The position numbers are program-made. 64,000 bases of DNA from a bacterium (GTDB lineage Bacteria > Patescibacteriota > Dojkabacteria > SC72): the NCBI GenBank assembly GCA_021463465.1, contig JAJTYH010000002.1, forward strand, positions 265,799 through 329,798, in the 5' to 3' direction. Positions within the stretch are counted from its first letter, which is position 1. Each line of letters starts with the position of its first letter. Below are positions 30,001 to 33,000 of this stretch, piece after piece.

Positions 30001-33000
30001 AAATTTGCTAAGCCAGAGTCTGAATAGTCCCTCTAGCTTATAGTGTTTATTCGTAGTATAATAACCCTTAATCAAAACCGATTTTCATCCGTACTTTTAC
30101 TTGGTTAACCAGGCGTGTGCTTGGTTCCTAAATACGGGGAGAAAACCCCTAAAAATAGAAAAAGGAGTTTACAATGTTAACAAAAGTTCTAAGTTACATC
30201 TTTGTCGGTTAATTGCTGGCGTTATCGGCATGCTCGCCATCAAAGGACGAGCAACCGATGGTGATTGTGGAAACCACTACACCAAAACCAACGTCCACGC
30301 CCATCGAGGTTCAAATCTTTTTGACTGAACCTACATCGACAAAACCCTCAGCGATTTCAGAGCAAGTGGATTGCACTAGCCTGAATTACAAGGCTTACCA
30401 CGGCGAGGTTACGGGCGGGGTGCTTTCAACAACGGACGGCAAGGATATCTGGCCCGTCAGTTATGTCTTCTTGCCTCAAAGTGGCTCGATCATGACAGAA
30501 GTGAGACCTAACGGCTTATGGGCTGTGGGCATAACAATGGAAAAGCAGACTAAGGTCTACGAAATCCGAAACACCTCGCTAACATCGATTGCTAAAGATG
30601 CTGGCGAACTTCTTGCCATGCTCTCCTCACAATCCCTTGGAATTCACAGGATTACCAGTTGGGCAGGAGGGGGGCAAAGTGATCTCAGTCTCAATAATAT
30701 CAGCATACTGATGGTTGCGGTTGCCTGTAATGGAAATATTGTAGATTCTGGCTTCTATATGACCGAAATTCAAAAAAATCAGGAAGATCTTCCTGGTTTA
30801 GTCCATGCGGGCACGTATGTTTTCGACGGCAAAACGATGATATTCCTCGAAGATAAGTAGTGATGACCTGTTAGATGCCGGGAGGCTTGCAAATCTACAA
30901 GCCTCCTGGCCTTCACTACTTTTAAAAAGTATTTCAACGACTCATCACCTTACCCGCTATCTTCATCTTCCTATCAAACAAACCGTTTTCTTTTTTAAAT
31001 CTTGAATACTCTTTTTCATTTCTTGAAGTAACTTTCTTAACCCACTTCTCAAAAGACATATTCTCTTTTTTGTGGTCATAAAAAACTCTCTGTATATTTT
31101 CTATCCTCTCAAGGATAACTTCAAATCTTGAATCCATACCAGAGAGTCTAGAGTCAATCTCATCTAATCTACTAATTATTATTTGAATTTCAGCACTGCT
31201 CAACATATTAAGATGATATCTTAAACTAACAGACCATACCTATGATTTATGAAAACTTGGTGACTTCAATACTAATCTAACTCCATTCAAGATATACATC
31301 ATTCTAAAACCCTATTGCTTTGACAAAAACCTCTTCATTTAGTATCATCCCCATGTCCTAAGAAACATGGTATAAAAATAAATCCATGTGAGGCAAAAGA
31401 AATATCTGAAATATTAGAACAACATCATGGCTAAAAGCCGAGATAATAAATCTGAACTTTTAAAGAAGTACCAGAGCATCCTTTCTGGTCATAACGGATT
31501 TCTACTTGTTGATACAAGTAACTTGGATACTCTGTCTATCACATCTCTTAAAATGAAACTCAAGGACATAGGTTCAGACTTCATGGTCATTAAAAACACC
31601 ATCTTCAAGATTGCACTTCAAAACGAGAATAAAGATATTAAACTTCAGGATTTTGACGGTCAAACTGCACTTATTGTTGTTGGTGATGACCCATCTGCTG
31701 CTGCTAAACTTGTAAAAGAAGTTCAAGCAGACAAAAAGCTCATGAATGCACGAATGGGACTATTCCAAACCGAATTCCTCTCCTCCGAACGAGTCATGGC
31801 CCTTGCAGATATTCCTTCCAGAGAAGTACTTCTTGCTAAACTACTCGGTTCACTCAACTCACCTCTTACTGGCTTCATGAACGCAGCTACAGGTAACGCA
31901 AGAGGTTTTGTATTTGTCTTAAAAGGGTTATCTGAAAAAGGTAACTGATTAAGTAATTAATTTAAGTCTAAACATGAAAATGGCAGACACACCAAATCTT
32001 TCAGACAACGCTCAGAAAGTACTCGAAATGGTCGAGAAAATGACCGTTTTAGAACTTGCTGATCTCGTAAAGGTTATGGAAGAAAAATTCGGCGTGAGTG
32101 CTGCCGCTCCTGTTGCTGTTGCTGCAGCTCCCGCTGCCGCCGCACCTGCAGAAGAGGAGCAATCCATCTTCTCCGTTGTGCTTAAGGACGCAGGGGCGAA
32201 CAAGATTAACGTAATCAAAGCAGTACGCGAGATTACTGAACTTGGTCTTAAAGAGGCTAAGGATCTTGTTGATGCAGGCGCTGGTTCTGTGATTAAGGAA
32301 GGTCTTCCTAAAGCAGACGCTGAAGCAGCCAAGAAGAAATTTGAAGAAGCAGGAGCTACAGTAGAACTTAAGTAATTGCTAAATCAAACCTTTAAGGATA
32401 ACCGGGTCACATGGCCCGGTTTTGCTTTTTAAAGATATACACAGTTTCATTGCTAAATTCTCGGTTTGCTATAAGTGCATATCCACACTTGCTAACCTTT
32501 TCAACGTAGATTTTATAATTCTCCCTCATCCCCTTCTCTTTTCCACTCAAAGAACGGTTGGGAAAACTAACAACCAGATAATTAACCTCAAGCTTATTTA
32601 AGAACTCATCACACTTCTTAGAATCAATTTGATTCAACACTGGAAGCAGTTTAAAGAGGATTGCTAATTCGGCCCTGGGAAAGTCATACATCAAAGCGTC
32701 ACAAACTATAGCTTTCATATTTGTTTTACCTTCACTTTTAAAGATTTCATTCAAAAAGTGCTGCTGTGAAGTATCGATATCAAAACAGATATAGTCATCA
32801 AATTGTAAAGATGTGATCATCATAAGTATCGGATTCAACCCACACCCAATATCCAAGACACGTCGAGAAACTTCAGTATTTTCAGTTACAAAGGAGAGTA
32901 CTTTCTCACAATCCAAAGCTCTTTCCTTGGTTGAAGAATGAATCTTTACGATATCCGCCAATTCTATCTTTTTTCCCAAAAACTTTCCGAATAACTTTTT

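What the first reader, a model, noticed from the sequence alone, without database searches (positions are those of the whole stretch)
30028..31426. Compositionally foreign island splitting the universally conserved rplKA-rplJL cluster, carrying a lipoprotein gene with an in-frame TAA inside its signal peptide
rplA and rplJ are normally adjacent and separated only by the L10 leader. Here they are separated by 1.4 kb that contains two things. The first is a gene with visibly higher G+C than everything else in the window. It starts with a perfect lipoprotein signal MLTKVLSYIFVG[TAA]LLALSAC|S..., in which the stop is in frame and not a frameshift. The second is a small convergent coiled-coil ORF with a strong bidirectional terminator between the two genes. 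This points to horizontally acquired DNA that was then inactivated, a sequencing or assembly error at one base, or localised stop-codon readthrough.
Basis: seen in the sequence. Interest (0 to 1): 0.6.

Follow-up and report, generated by a model that had tools for sequence, protein, structure and literature searches.

The report
Nonsense-disrupted orphan lipoprotein gene beside rplJ
A real, fixed TAA stop codon cuts the export signal of a rare lipoprotein gene lying between two ribosomal-protein operons of a candidate-phyla-radiation bacterium, so this is most likely a young pseudogene in a naturally variable spacer and not a sequencing error or a recent foreign island.

Summary
All the sequence observations hold. 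rplA and rplJ are 1399 nt apart. The ORF at 30213-30860 has the highest G+C in the window (0.474 against 0.382) and GC3 of 0.51 against 0.34. ATG 30174, with a strong Shine-Dalgarno site, opens a lipoprotein signal that an in-frame TAA breaks at 30210-30212.

The TAA is not an error. The 1399 nt are identical in seven independent assemblies spanning several haplotypes. The genetic code is standard, and TAA is the commonest stop.

The split of rplKA from rplJL is not special to this genome. In 21 of 22 related Dojkabacteria-like loci the spacer is 480-2080 nt and holds varied orphan genes.

The gene is not a recent private insertion. Its only two homologues among about 15 billion proteins are intact lipoproteins. 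One lies directly upstream of rplJ. They share a -10 box, a 5'UTR hairpin or a terminator hairpin with the window gene.

Both homologues show the same GC3 excess limited to the coding sequence, and the same unusually stable predicted mRNA folding. That family trait is unexplained.

Best reading: a young nonsense pseudogene of a lineage-specific lipoprotein. Readthrough is unlikely. Function is unknown, because structure prediction failed.

The parts
29329..30027 (+). rplA (ribosomal protein L1), upstream boundary of the spacer
   Evidence: Pfam Ribosomal_L1 4.6e-41; ORF
30057..30062 (+). TATAAT, candidate -10 box of the lipoprotein gene's own promoter
   Evidence: The block GTATAATAACCCTTAATCAA (30056-30075) is conserved with L057 (GATATAATAAACCTTATCAA) and L056 (GATATAATTAACCCTATCAA), both upstream of their homologues. 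The promoter scan did not call it because the -35 is weak. Its function is inferred.
30107..30126 (+). 5'UTR hairpin 1 (AACCAGGC-GUGU-GCUUGGUU)
   Evidence: Present in both the centroid and the MFE fold. The homologous hairpin in L057 carries a compensatory C-G to U-A change, read from alignment A3.
30136..30149 (+). 5'UTR hairpin 2 (GGGG-AGAAAA-CCCC) just upstream of the Shine-Dalgarno site
   Evidence: L056 and L057 have analogous stem/CAAAAG-loop hairpins at the same place.
30162..30167 (+). Shine-Dalgarno AAGGAG, 6 nt before ATG 30174
   Evidence: Read from the sequence
30174..30209 (+). First 12 codons of the prolipoprotein (MLTKVLSYIFVG): n-region and first half of the h-region of the signal peptide
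   Evidence: Aligns with the signal peptides of P0002 and P0003, with M1 and F10 invariant.
30210..30212 (+). In-frame TAA nonsense codon (codon 13), most simply TTA (Leu) to TAA; next base is T
   Evidence: Identical in 13 fetched loci from seven independent assemblies. P0002 has Leu at the aligned position.
30213..30860 (+). Remainder of the lipoprotein ORF: 215 codons from TTG, lipobox L-S-A-C at 30222-30233, Pro/Thr-rich linker, globular part with two conserved Cys, stop TAG
   Evidence: GC 0.474 and GC3 0.509. Only two remote homologues, P0002 and P0003. The mRNA folds more stably than synonymous permutations, z -3.85.
30855..30921 (.). Strong hairpin between the convergent genes (inner 13-bp stem 30877-30889/30898-30910, outer stem 30855-30863/30913-30921); probable terminator or mRNA 3' stabiliser
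   Evidence: -34.5 kcal/mol, z -5.87; repeats I3 and I4. L055 has a homologous GC-rich hairpin after its gene. No adjacent U-tract.
30934..31206 (-). Orphan 90-aa ORF of native composition, annotated by NCBI as hypothetical protein IT417_02110; absent from the equivalent spacer in L055
   Evidence: only itself in 5.8 billion clusters. GC 0.32, GC3 0.33. Only weak sub-threshold family hits. Absence from L055.
31320..31348 (+). rplJ promoter (TTGACA-17-TATCAT)
   Evidence: 11 of 12 consensus matches. Conserved as CTTGACC-N17-TATAAT in all related loci.
31356..31394 (+). Conserved structured rplJ leader element (UCC..AAGAAACAUGG..loop..CCAUGU..GG)
   Evidence: RNAalifold predicts 9 pairs, 5 with compensatory changes, across 17 sequences. 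No Rfam match.
31427..31948 (+). rplJ (ribosomal protein L10), downstream boundary
   Evidence: Pfam Ribosomal_L10 1.4e-17

Best explanation
The rplA-rplJ spacer of this probable Dojkabacteria (WS6, CPR) genome is a naturally variable slot between two separate transcription units. Here it holds two small lineage-specific units. The first is an orphan lipoprotein gene with its own -10 box, a structured 5'UTR, a strong Shine-Dalgarno site, a canonical signal peptide with lipobox, and a 3' hairpin. A genuine point mutation has made codon 13 a TAA, most simply from TTA (Leu). The organism uses the standard code and UAA-U is a strong termination context. Ribosomes starting at ATG 30174 should therefore release a 12-residue peptide, and the full prolipoprotein cannot be made. 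Any reinitiation at TTG 30213 or ATG 30258 would give a product without a usable signal peptide, so it would be neither exported nor lipidated. The gene is therefore most likely a young pseudogene, fixed in this clonal population and not yet otherwise decayed. Its high G+C is not a mark of recent import into this genome. It is a trait of the three-member gene family, limited to the coding sequence and coupled to unusually stable predicted mRNA folding. I infer that this reflects selection on the mRNA. Shown: the reality of the TAA, the standard code, the synteny, the composition and the folding statistics. Inferred: loss of function, the TTA ancestor, and the cause of the GC3 excess.
For: The TAA is real. 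All 1399 nt, TAA-TTG included, are 100% identical in 13 fetched loci from seven independent assemblies (NCBI GCA_020853275.1 and Logan runs SRR35280563, SRR17318674, ERR10655372, ERR10655375, SRR30163053, SRR11294022). Several further assemblies cover only part of the spacer and are identical there, apart from one synonymous SNP in L076. These assemblies differ from the window and from each other at up to 10 sites per 6.5 kb elsewhere, so several haplotypes are sampled. Every gene caller produced only truncated products of 200, 122 or 107 aa, and no intact 228-aa allele with L, S, Y or Q is in the collection. The code is standard: stops are TAA 26, TAG 21 and TGA 11 in 58 long ORFs, the window has no suppressor tRNA, and no other gene is split by one stop. 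The ancestor was a lipoprotein. Both homologues pass the lipoprotein rule (Cys24, Cys22) and their signal peptides align across the TAA, with P0002 carrying Leu there. The read-through product passes the rule and the TTG-start ORF fails it. The gene is not a private insertion. P0002 sits about 200 nt upstream of an rplJ whose product is 65% identical to the window's, with a homologous terminator hairpin and a conserved rplJ promoter and leader. The -10 block is shared with both L056 and L057, and 5'UTR hairpin 1 with L057. The spacer is variable across the lineage: 21 of 22 related loci have 479-2078 nt filled with unrelated small orphan genes, against 66-304 nt in non-CPR comparators. The composition is a family trait. 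GC3 is 0.51, 0.63 and 0.52 against an expected 0.33-0.35, flanks are about 0.30 G+C, and the neighbouring rplJ fragment in L055 has GC3 of 0.14. rplJ synonymous sites are saturated between the window and L055. mRNA folding against synonymous-codon permutations gives z of -3.85, -5.21 and -5.51, with 0 of 80 permutations reaching the native value in each. The 57 other ORFs give mean -0.50, sd 1.16, minimum -2.99.
Against: Apart from the TAA the gene is pristine: -10 box, Shine-Dalgarno site, 215 stop-free codons and conserved Cys residues are all intact. The allele is fixed in every sample, which would also fit a tolerated or even useful truncated or reinitiated product. The lack of further decay is uninformative, because strain divergence is only about 0.02-0.17% and the single SNP in the ORF is synonymous. 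No expression, read-level or proteomic data were available. The synteny claim rests on short contigs of 1.1-1.4 kb. Only L055/L056 show rplJ, and rplA was not seen upstream in any homologue. An ancient transfer into the ancestor of this subclade cannot be excluded. The closest GTDB relative, L002, has a bare 159-nt spacer. The link between GC3 and mRNA structure is a correlation across three genes, based on predicted folds only.
Confidence: 0.6

Rival explanations
1. Horizontally acquired island, later inactivated. The lipoprotein gene came from a higher-G+C donor and was inserted between rplA and rplJ, then knocked out.
For: The ORF is the strongest compositional outlier in 64 kb: G+C +3.7 sd, and GC3 0.168 above the amino-acid expectation against a background sd of 0.035. 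The family is patchy. It is absent from 22 other Dojkabacteria-like spacers, including the nearest relative L002.
Against: No donor can be found. Exhaustive phmmer over 1.84 billion representatives, a profile search of 5.8 billion clusters, and JGI metagenome and IMG/VR scans give only two homologues, both in very AT-rich contexts (flanks about 0.30 G+C), one of them directly upstream of rplJ. The low-G+C -10 block, a UTR hairpin and the terminator hairpin are shared among the homologues pairwise. There is no integrase, flanking tRNA or flanking direct or inverted repeat. The GC3 excess persists although the lineages are diverged to synonymous saturation, which neutral amelioration after one old transfer does not predict.
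Confidence: 0.15
2. The gene is still used through termination-reinitiation. Ribosomes finishing the 12-codon leader at TAA restart at the adjacent TTG 30213, or at ATG 30258. This yields a signal-less, non-lipidated cytoplasmic protein, or the short ORF acts as a regulatory leader.
For: TAA and TTG are contiguous (TAATTG), a geometry that permits translational coupling. Promoter, Shine-Dalgarno site and ORF are intact, and the allele is fixed in all sampled strains.
Against: Both homologues are ordinary full-length prolipoproteins with no split, so this would be a novelty of one strain. The two conserved Cys and the Pro/Thr linker suggest an extracytoplasmic protein (inference). There is no Shine-Dalgarno site before the TTG. 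Fixation with no further decay is equally expected for a young pseudogene at 0.02-0.17% divergence.
Confidence: 0.12
3. Programmed readthrough or local recoding of the TAA restores the full lipoprotein.
For: The stop is exactly in frame, and the read-through product would be a textbook lipoprotein signal.
Against: TAA is the most used stop in the window (26 of 58 ORFs) and ends rplK and rplL. The window's 10 tRNA genes include no suppressor. No other ORF pair is split by a single stop. UAA followed by U is the most efficient termination signal in E. coli (established knowledge, Poole, Brown and Tate 1995, not tested here). The homologues have a sense codon at this position.
Confidence: 0.04
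4. Sequencing or assembly error at one base.
For: It is a single-base difference from a sense codon, and the window carries two private differences elsewhere (33041 and a T deletion near 33310) that could be assembly errors.
Against: TAA-TTG is identical in 13 fetched loci from seven independent assemblies drawn from several run series. All gene callers truncated the gene. No intact allele is in the protein collection.
Confidence: 0.01

Closest known systems
Bacterial prolipoproteins (Lgt/LspA substrates; PROSITE PS51257 signal)
   Same: n-region with Lys4, a hydrophobic core, the lipobox L-S-A-C and Cys at position 20 of the conceptual product. Both homologues are complete lipoproteins with a Pro/Thr-rich tether.
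   Different: The signal is cut by a TAA after residue 12, so no stop-free ORF carries a valid signal. The mature domain matches no Pfam, NCBIfam, PHROG or PDB family, and AlphaFold2 gave no confident model.
Young nonsense pseudogenes in bacterial genomes
   Same: A single premature stop in an otherwise intact gene with intact expression signals, fixed in a near-clonal population.
   Different: It lies in a reduced CPR genome, where pseudogenes are thought to be few (own knowledge). Function or non-function has not been tested.
E. coli-type rplKA / rplJL organisation with an L10 leader (Rfam RF00557)
   Same: There are two separate transcription units, and rplJ has its own promoter and a structured leader.
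   Different: In this CPR lineage the spacer is expanded to 0.5-2 kb and holds variable orphan genes. The leader is a lineage-specific structure that Rfam does not match.
Genomic islands acquired by horizontal transfer
   Same: Atypical G+C and codon usage, and patchy distribution among relatives.
   Different: No mobility genes, no flanking repeats, no tRNA target and no identifiable donor. The anomaly stops at the boundaries of the coding sequence and recurs in the homologues, one of them at the same site.
E. coli lpp (Braun lipoprotein) mRNA: a highly structured, long-lived message of an abundant lipoprotein (analogy from own knowledge; Nakamura, Pirtle and Inouye 1980)
   Same: A lipoprotein message with far more predicted secondary structure than its neighbours.
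   Different: There is no sequence relationship. Structure and stability here are only predicted, and abundance is unknown.

Membership tests
Bacterial lipoprotein (PROSITE PS51257-type signal) | Lipobox [LVI][ASTVI][GAS]C | tested here: met
   L-S-A-C at 30222-30233
Bacterial lipoprotein (PROSITE PS51257-type signal) | Cys at residue 15-35 of a continuous ORF, K/R within the first 7 residues, uncharged h-region | tested here: not met
   The rule is met only by the conceptual read-through product (Cys20 with L, S, Y or Q at codon 13). The stop-free TTG-start ORF has Cys7 and fails.
Bacterial lipoprotein (PROSITE PS51257-type signal) | Homologues are lipoproteins | tested here: met
   P0002 (Cys24) and P0003 (Cys22) pass the same rule, and their signal peptides align across the TAA
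Bacterial lipoprotein (PROSITE PS51257-type signal) | Diacylglyceryl modification and signal peptidase II cleavage; presence of lgt and lspA in the genome | not testable with these tools
   This needs the whole genome and biochemistry. No other ORF in the 64 kb carries a lipoprotein signal.
Horizontally acquired genomic island | Atypical base composition and codon usage | tested here: met
   G+C 0.474 is the window maximum. GC3 is 0.509 against 0.336, sd 0.043, which is 0.168 above the amino-acid expectation.
Horizontally acquired genomic island | Absent from the same site in relatives | tested here: inconclusive
   It is present directly upstream of rplJ in L055/L056, and regulatory elements are shared with L056 and L057. 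It is absent from 22 other related spacers, including L002.
Horizontally acquired genomic island | Mobility signatures (integrase or transposase, tRNA target, flanking direct or inverted repeats) | tested here: not met
   No such ORFs in 30028-31426, only chance-level short repeats, and no tRNA in the spacer
Horizontally acquired genomic island | Identifiable donor lineage | tested here: not met
   Only three family members were found anywhere, all in AT-rich contexts
Stop-codon reassignment or programmed readthrough | The codon is read as sense elsewhere, or conserved genes contain it in frame | tested here: not met
   TAA ends 26 of 58 long ORFs including rplK and rplL. No other gene is split by one stop.
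Stop-codon reassignment or programmed readthrough | Cognate suppressor tRNA | tested here: inconclusive
   None among the window's 10 tRNA genes. The rest of the genome was not available.
Rfam L10_leader (RF00557) | Covariance-model match upstream of rplJ | tested here: not met
   No hit at the gathering threshold or at E<=10. A different, lineage-specific conserved hairpin with 5 covarying pairs is present.
Intrinsic (Rho-independent) terminator | G+C-rich hairpin immediately followed by a U-tract | tested here: inconclusive
   The hairpin is very strong. The scan did not call it because no run of T lies within 2 nt of the stem on either strand.

The most novel reading that the evidence does not exclude
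The lipoprotein gene family beside rplJ is under selection at synonymous sites for a G+C-rich, hyper-structured mRNA in otherwise very AT-rich CPR genomes. On this reading, the 'foreign' composition is an RNA-level adaptation and not a trace of transfer. It might give an exceptionally stable message for an abundant surface lipoprotein, or reflect an RNA role that could outlive the nonsense mutation.
Probability: 0.2. Interest if true: 0.55.

Novelty: new member of a known kind. Interest (0 to 1): 0.3.

Why it matters
The result is mainly a correction. The TAA is real biology and not an error. It is best read as an ordinary young pseudogene. The 'broken' rplKA-rplJL cluster is the normal state in Dojkabacteria, where the spacer is a variable slot for orphan genes. 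This is useful for annotation: gene callers produced three different truncated models of this gene.

The one point that could repay further work is the conserved GC3 excess limited to the coding sequence, together with the hyper-stable predicted mRNA, in all three family members. This is a case where atypical composition would wrongly be scored as horizontal transfer. It also offers a handle on mRNA-level selection, and on a possibly abundant surface protein, in uncultured epibiotic bacteria.

Tried and rejected
- **Structure prediction.** Two AlphaFold2 runs on the three-sequence alignment gave pLDDT 34.6 and 39.4. The models were unusable, so no fold search was run.
- **Family searches.** Pfam, NCBIfam, PHROGs and a PDB profile search for the lipoprotein and its homologues gave nothing at or near threshold.
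- **Looking for more family members or a donor.**
  - A word-indexed search returned only the gene itself.
  - Exhaustive phmmer found two remote homologues.
  - A profile search found no more.
  - A JGI metagenome scan with the family alignment found none.
  - An IMG/VR scan found none.
  - A metagenome DNA scan with the subclade-specific rplJ leader pattern found 0 matches.
- **Diversity-generating retroelement or template repeat, and paralogues.** No second copy of any part of the gene exists in the window.
- **Mobile-element boundaries.** Only chance-level repeats were found.
- **Rfam, for the 5'UTR, the 3' hairpin and the rplJ leader.** Only noise appeared.
- **The 5'UTR as a whole.** It does not fold better than shuffles, z +0.32. 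Only its two local hairpins stand out.
- **The conserved 140-nt block upstream of the homologues in L056 and L057.** It is not present in the window or the other loci.
- **Literature.** Searches on Dojkabacteria lipoproteins and on the assembly accessions found nothing relevant.
- **Selection test within the population.** This was impossible, because only one SNP (synonymous) falls in the ORF.
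Full report
**What is in the sequence**

rplA (29329-30027) and rplJ (31427-31948) are confirmed by Pfam (L1 4.6e-41, L10 1.4e-17). They are 1399 nt apart. Translation from ATG 30174 gives MLTKVLSYIFVG*LLALSACSPSK..., with the TAA at 30210-30212 in frame. It is followed by 215 stop-free codons to TAG 30858-30860. AAGGAG lies 6 nt before the ATG.

I applied a PROSITE-PS51257-type lipoprotein rule. 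The read-through product passes it (Cys20) when codon 13 is L, S, Y or Q. The stop-free ORF from TTG 30213 fails it (Cys7). No other ORF in the 64 kb carries such a signal.

The ORF is the compositional extreme of the window:
- G+C is 0.474, the maximum of all 648-nt windows (mean 0.382, sd 0.025).
- GC3 is 0.509 against 0.336, sd 0.043, for 58 long ORFs.
- GC3 is 0.168 above what its amino-acid composition and the window's codon usage predict, against a background sd of 0.035.

A 90-aa ORF lies convergently at 30934-31206(-). It has native composition (G+C 0.32). Between the two genes is a very stable hairpin with a 13-bp stem at 30877-30910 (-34.5 kcal/mol, z -5.9). It has no adjacent U-tract, and the terminator scan did not call it.

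**Is the TAA real?**

Yes. NCBI contig JADYZE010000027.1 (GCA_020853275.1, 'bacterium') is 99.98% identical to the window and carries the TAA.

Exact look-ups of the window's L10 and of the 90-aa protein found this locus in many other assemblies. In 13 fetched loci, from seven independent assemblies, the whole 1399-nt spacer is 100% identical and reads GGT TAA TTG. The assemblies are GCA_020853275.1 and Logan runs SRR35280563, SRR17318674, ERR10655372, ERR10655375, SRR30163053 and SRR11294022. Several further assemblies cover only part of the spacer and are identical there, apart from one SNP in L076.

These assemblies are not copies of one consensus. They differ from the window and from each other at 1-10 sites per 6.5 kb elsewhere. 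The L076 SNP in the ORF is synonymous, ATC to ATT.

Gene callers produced only truncated products of 200, 122 and 107 aa. No intact 228-aa allele exists among about 15 billion proteins. A sequencing or assembly error is excluded.

**Genetic code**

TAA ends 26 of the 58 long ORFs, TAG ends 21 and TGA ends 11. rplK and rplL both end in TAA. The window's ten tRNA genes include no suppressor. No other gene in the window is split by a single stop.

The base after the stop is T. UAA-U is the most efficient termination signal in E. coli (established knowledge, not tested here). Readthrough is therefore unlikely. A frameshift would not restore the lipoprotein frame, because the ATG and the ORF are already in the same frame.

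**What the gene is**

The gene belongs to a very rare family.
- A word-indexed search found only the gene itself.
- An exhaustive phmmer search over 1.84 billion cluster representatives found two remote homologues: P0002 (230 aa, E 5e-7) and P0003 (242 aa, E 2e-6).
- A profile search of 5.8 billion clusters, a JGI metagenome scan and an IMG/VR scan added none.

Both homologues are complete lipoproteins that pass the same rule (Cys24 and Cys22). Each has a Pro/Thr-rich tether and a globular part with two invariant Cys. Their signal peptides align across the window's TAA, where P0002 has Leu. The simplest history is therefore TTA to TAA.

No Pfam, NCBIfam, PHROG or PDB family matches. AlphaFold2 gave pLDDT of 35 and 39. 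The biochemical function remains unknown.

**Is it a foreign island that splits a conserved cluster?**

The best L1 matches are Dojkabacteria (WS6) MAGs, at up to 61% identity. Twenty-two such loci carry both rplA and rplJ. In 21 of them the spacer is 479-2078 nt, and in 10 it exceeds 1 kb. Only L002 is short, at 159 nt. Non-CPR comparators have 66-304 nt.

The spacers hold unrelated small orphan genes of native composition. These include several Cys-rich families, and none occurs in the window.

All loci keep a conserved rplJ promoter (CTTGACC-N17-TATAAT) and a structured leader with five covarying pairs. The window's copies are at 31320-31348 and 31356-31394. rplKA and rplJL are therefore separate units, and the space between them is a variable slot across the lineage.

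The lipoprotein gene itself is not private to this genome:
- On L055/L056, P0002 lies about 200 nt upstream of an rplJ fragment whose product is 65% identical to the window's. A homologous G+C-rich hairpin follows the gene, and the same rplJ promoter and leader are present.
- The -10 block (G/TATAATWAACCYTWATCAA) is shared with both L056 and L057.
- 5'UTR hairpin 1 is shared with L057 and carries a compensatory change.
- The 90-aa ORF module is absent from L055.
- The spacer has no mobility gene, no tRNA and no meaningful flanking repeats.

**The compositional anomaly is a family trait**

In all three genes the excess is confined to the coding sequence. GC3 is 0.51, 0.63 and 0.52 against an expected 0.33-0.35. 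Flanks have about 0.30 G+C. The adjacent rplJ fragment in L055 has GC3 of only 0.14.

Synonymous sites of rplJ are saturated between the window and L055: 20 of 53 third bases are shared at identical residues. A single old transfer followed by neutral amelioration does not predict this. Three recent imports from an unseen donor into the same regulatory frame seem contrived.

All three coding sequences also fold far more stably than controls:

| Control | Window | L055 | L057 | Background ORFs |
|---|---|---|---|---|
| Dinucleotide shuffles (z) | -3.5 | -5.8 | -4.9 | 24 ORFs, mean -0.34, sd 1.36 |
| Synonymous-codon permutations (z) | -3.85 | -5.21 | -5.51 | 57 ORFs, mean -0.50, sd 1.16, min -2.99 |

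In the permutation control, 0 of 80 permutations reached the native value for any of the three genes. That control keeps protein sequence, codon usage and GC3 fixed.

I infer that selection for a highly structured mRNA may drive the GC3 excess. This rests on three genes and on predicted folds only, so I treat it as unexplained.

**Most likely mechanism**

Transcription probably starts from the unit's own -10 box, or reads through from rplKA. It yields a message with a structured 5'UTR and a strong ribosome-binding site. Ribosomes start at 30174 and terminate at the UAA after 12 codons.

Any restart at the adjacent TTG, or at ATG 30258, would give a protein without a functional signal peptide. 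It would be neither exported nor lipidated.

I therefore read the gene as a young nonsense pseudogene, fixed in a near-clonal and widely sampled population (confidence about 0.6). The absence of further decay is expected at 0.02-0.17% strain divergence and does not discriminate between readings.

Rival readings and my confidence in each:
- an ancient or recent transfer followed by inactivation (0.15);
- a still-used reinitiation product or regulatory leader ORF (0.12);
- readthrough (0.04);
- sequencing or assembly error (0.01).

**Verdict**

This is a new, uncharacterised member of an ordinary kind: a lineage-specific lipoprotein gene disabled by a nonsense mutation, sitting in a normally variable spacer. 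It is of modest interest. The conserved GC3 and mRNA-folding anomaly is the only part that could lead somewhere new.

Noticed in passing
window 31320-31426 (core 31356-31394); loci L002-L041 and L055, about 130 nt upstream of rplJ: All Dojkabacteria-like loci share an rplJ promoter (CTTGACC-N17-TATAAT) and a leader hairpin (UUAACC UAAGAA ACAAGG ..13-nt loop.. CCUUGC GA GGUUAA). Five of its nine pairs show compensatory changes. Rfam, including L10_leader RF00557, does not match. This is probably a lineage-specific L10 autoregulatory leader.
   Followed up: partly
window 30174-30860; L055 267-959; L057 363-1091: All three lipoprotein coding sequences have GC3 of 0.51-0.63 in contexts of about 0.30 G+C. 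Their predicted mRNA folding beats synonymous-codon permutations by z -3.9 to -5.5, more extreme than any of 57 other ORFs in the window. The cause is unknown.
   Followed up: partly
loci L003-L041, between rplA and rplJ: The rplA-rplJ spacer of Dojkabacteria holds several small orphan gene families. Examples are 60-77-aa Cys-rich proteins ending ...EEGLEPI and 120-140-aa proteins starting MCxxCxFKQYCxDC. None has a Pfam match and none occurs in the window.
   Followed up: partly
window 32407-33186 (-) and 33298-36369: rplL is followed not by rpoBC but by a convergent FmrO-type 16S rRNA methyltransferase gene (Pfam 1.3e-18), the family of aminoglycoside-resistance methylases. After it come a 7TM_transglut gene and ATP-grasp genes.
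   Followed up: no
window 33041 and about 33310: The window differs from every other assembly of this strain by one substitution and a 1-nt T deletion. The deletion shortens the called start of the 7TM_transglut gene (217 aa against 222 aa). It is either a private variant or an assembly error in the window's source.
   Followed up: partly
L056 1-240 and L057 60-260: A non-coding block of about 140 nt is strongly conserved between the two homologue contigs (...TTTGAGCTCGTTWACACTAT...ATGTCTAGAAATAGCAT...TAGAAATAACTACAT). It lies between the -10 box and the lipoprotein gene, making their 5'UTRs about 130 nt longer than the window's. It is absent from the window and the other loci.
   Followed up: partly
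window 31298-31348: The rplJ -35 hexamer sits in a near-palindrome, TTTGACAAA. This also reads as a -35 for a promoter-like site on the minus strand (31326 to 31298) facing the 90-aa ORF. The two may be back-to-back divergent promoters.
   Followed up: no
window 28065-28139 (+) and 42606-42679 (-): There are two tRNA-Trp(CCA) genes within 15 kb, which is unusual for a small genome.
   Followed up: no
window 33298-33951 (+): The 7TM_transglut ORF also folds much better than dinucleotide shuffles (z -4.1), but less so against synonymous permutations (z -2.85).
   Followed up: no
L007 about 5400-6000 (minus strand of the locus), inside its rplA-rplJ spacer: Two small adjacent ORFs of 104 and 101 aa look by eye like a toxin-antitoxin pair. 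They have no Pfam hit at E<=0.01.
   Followed up: no
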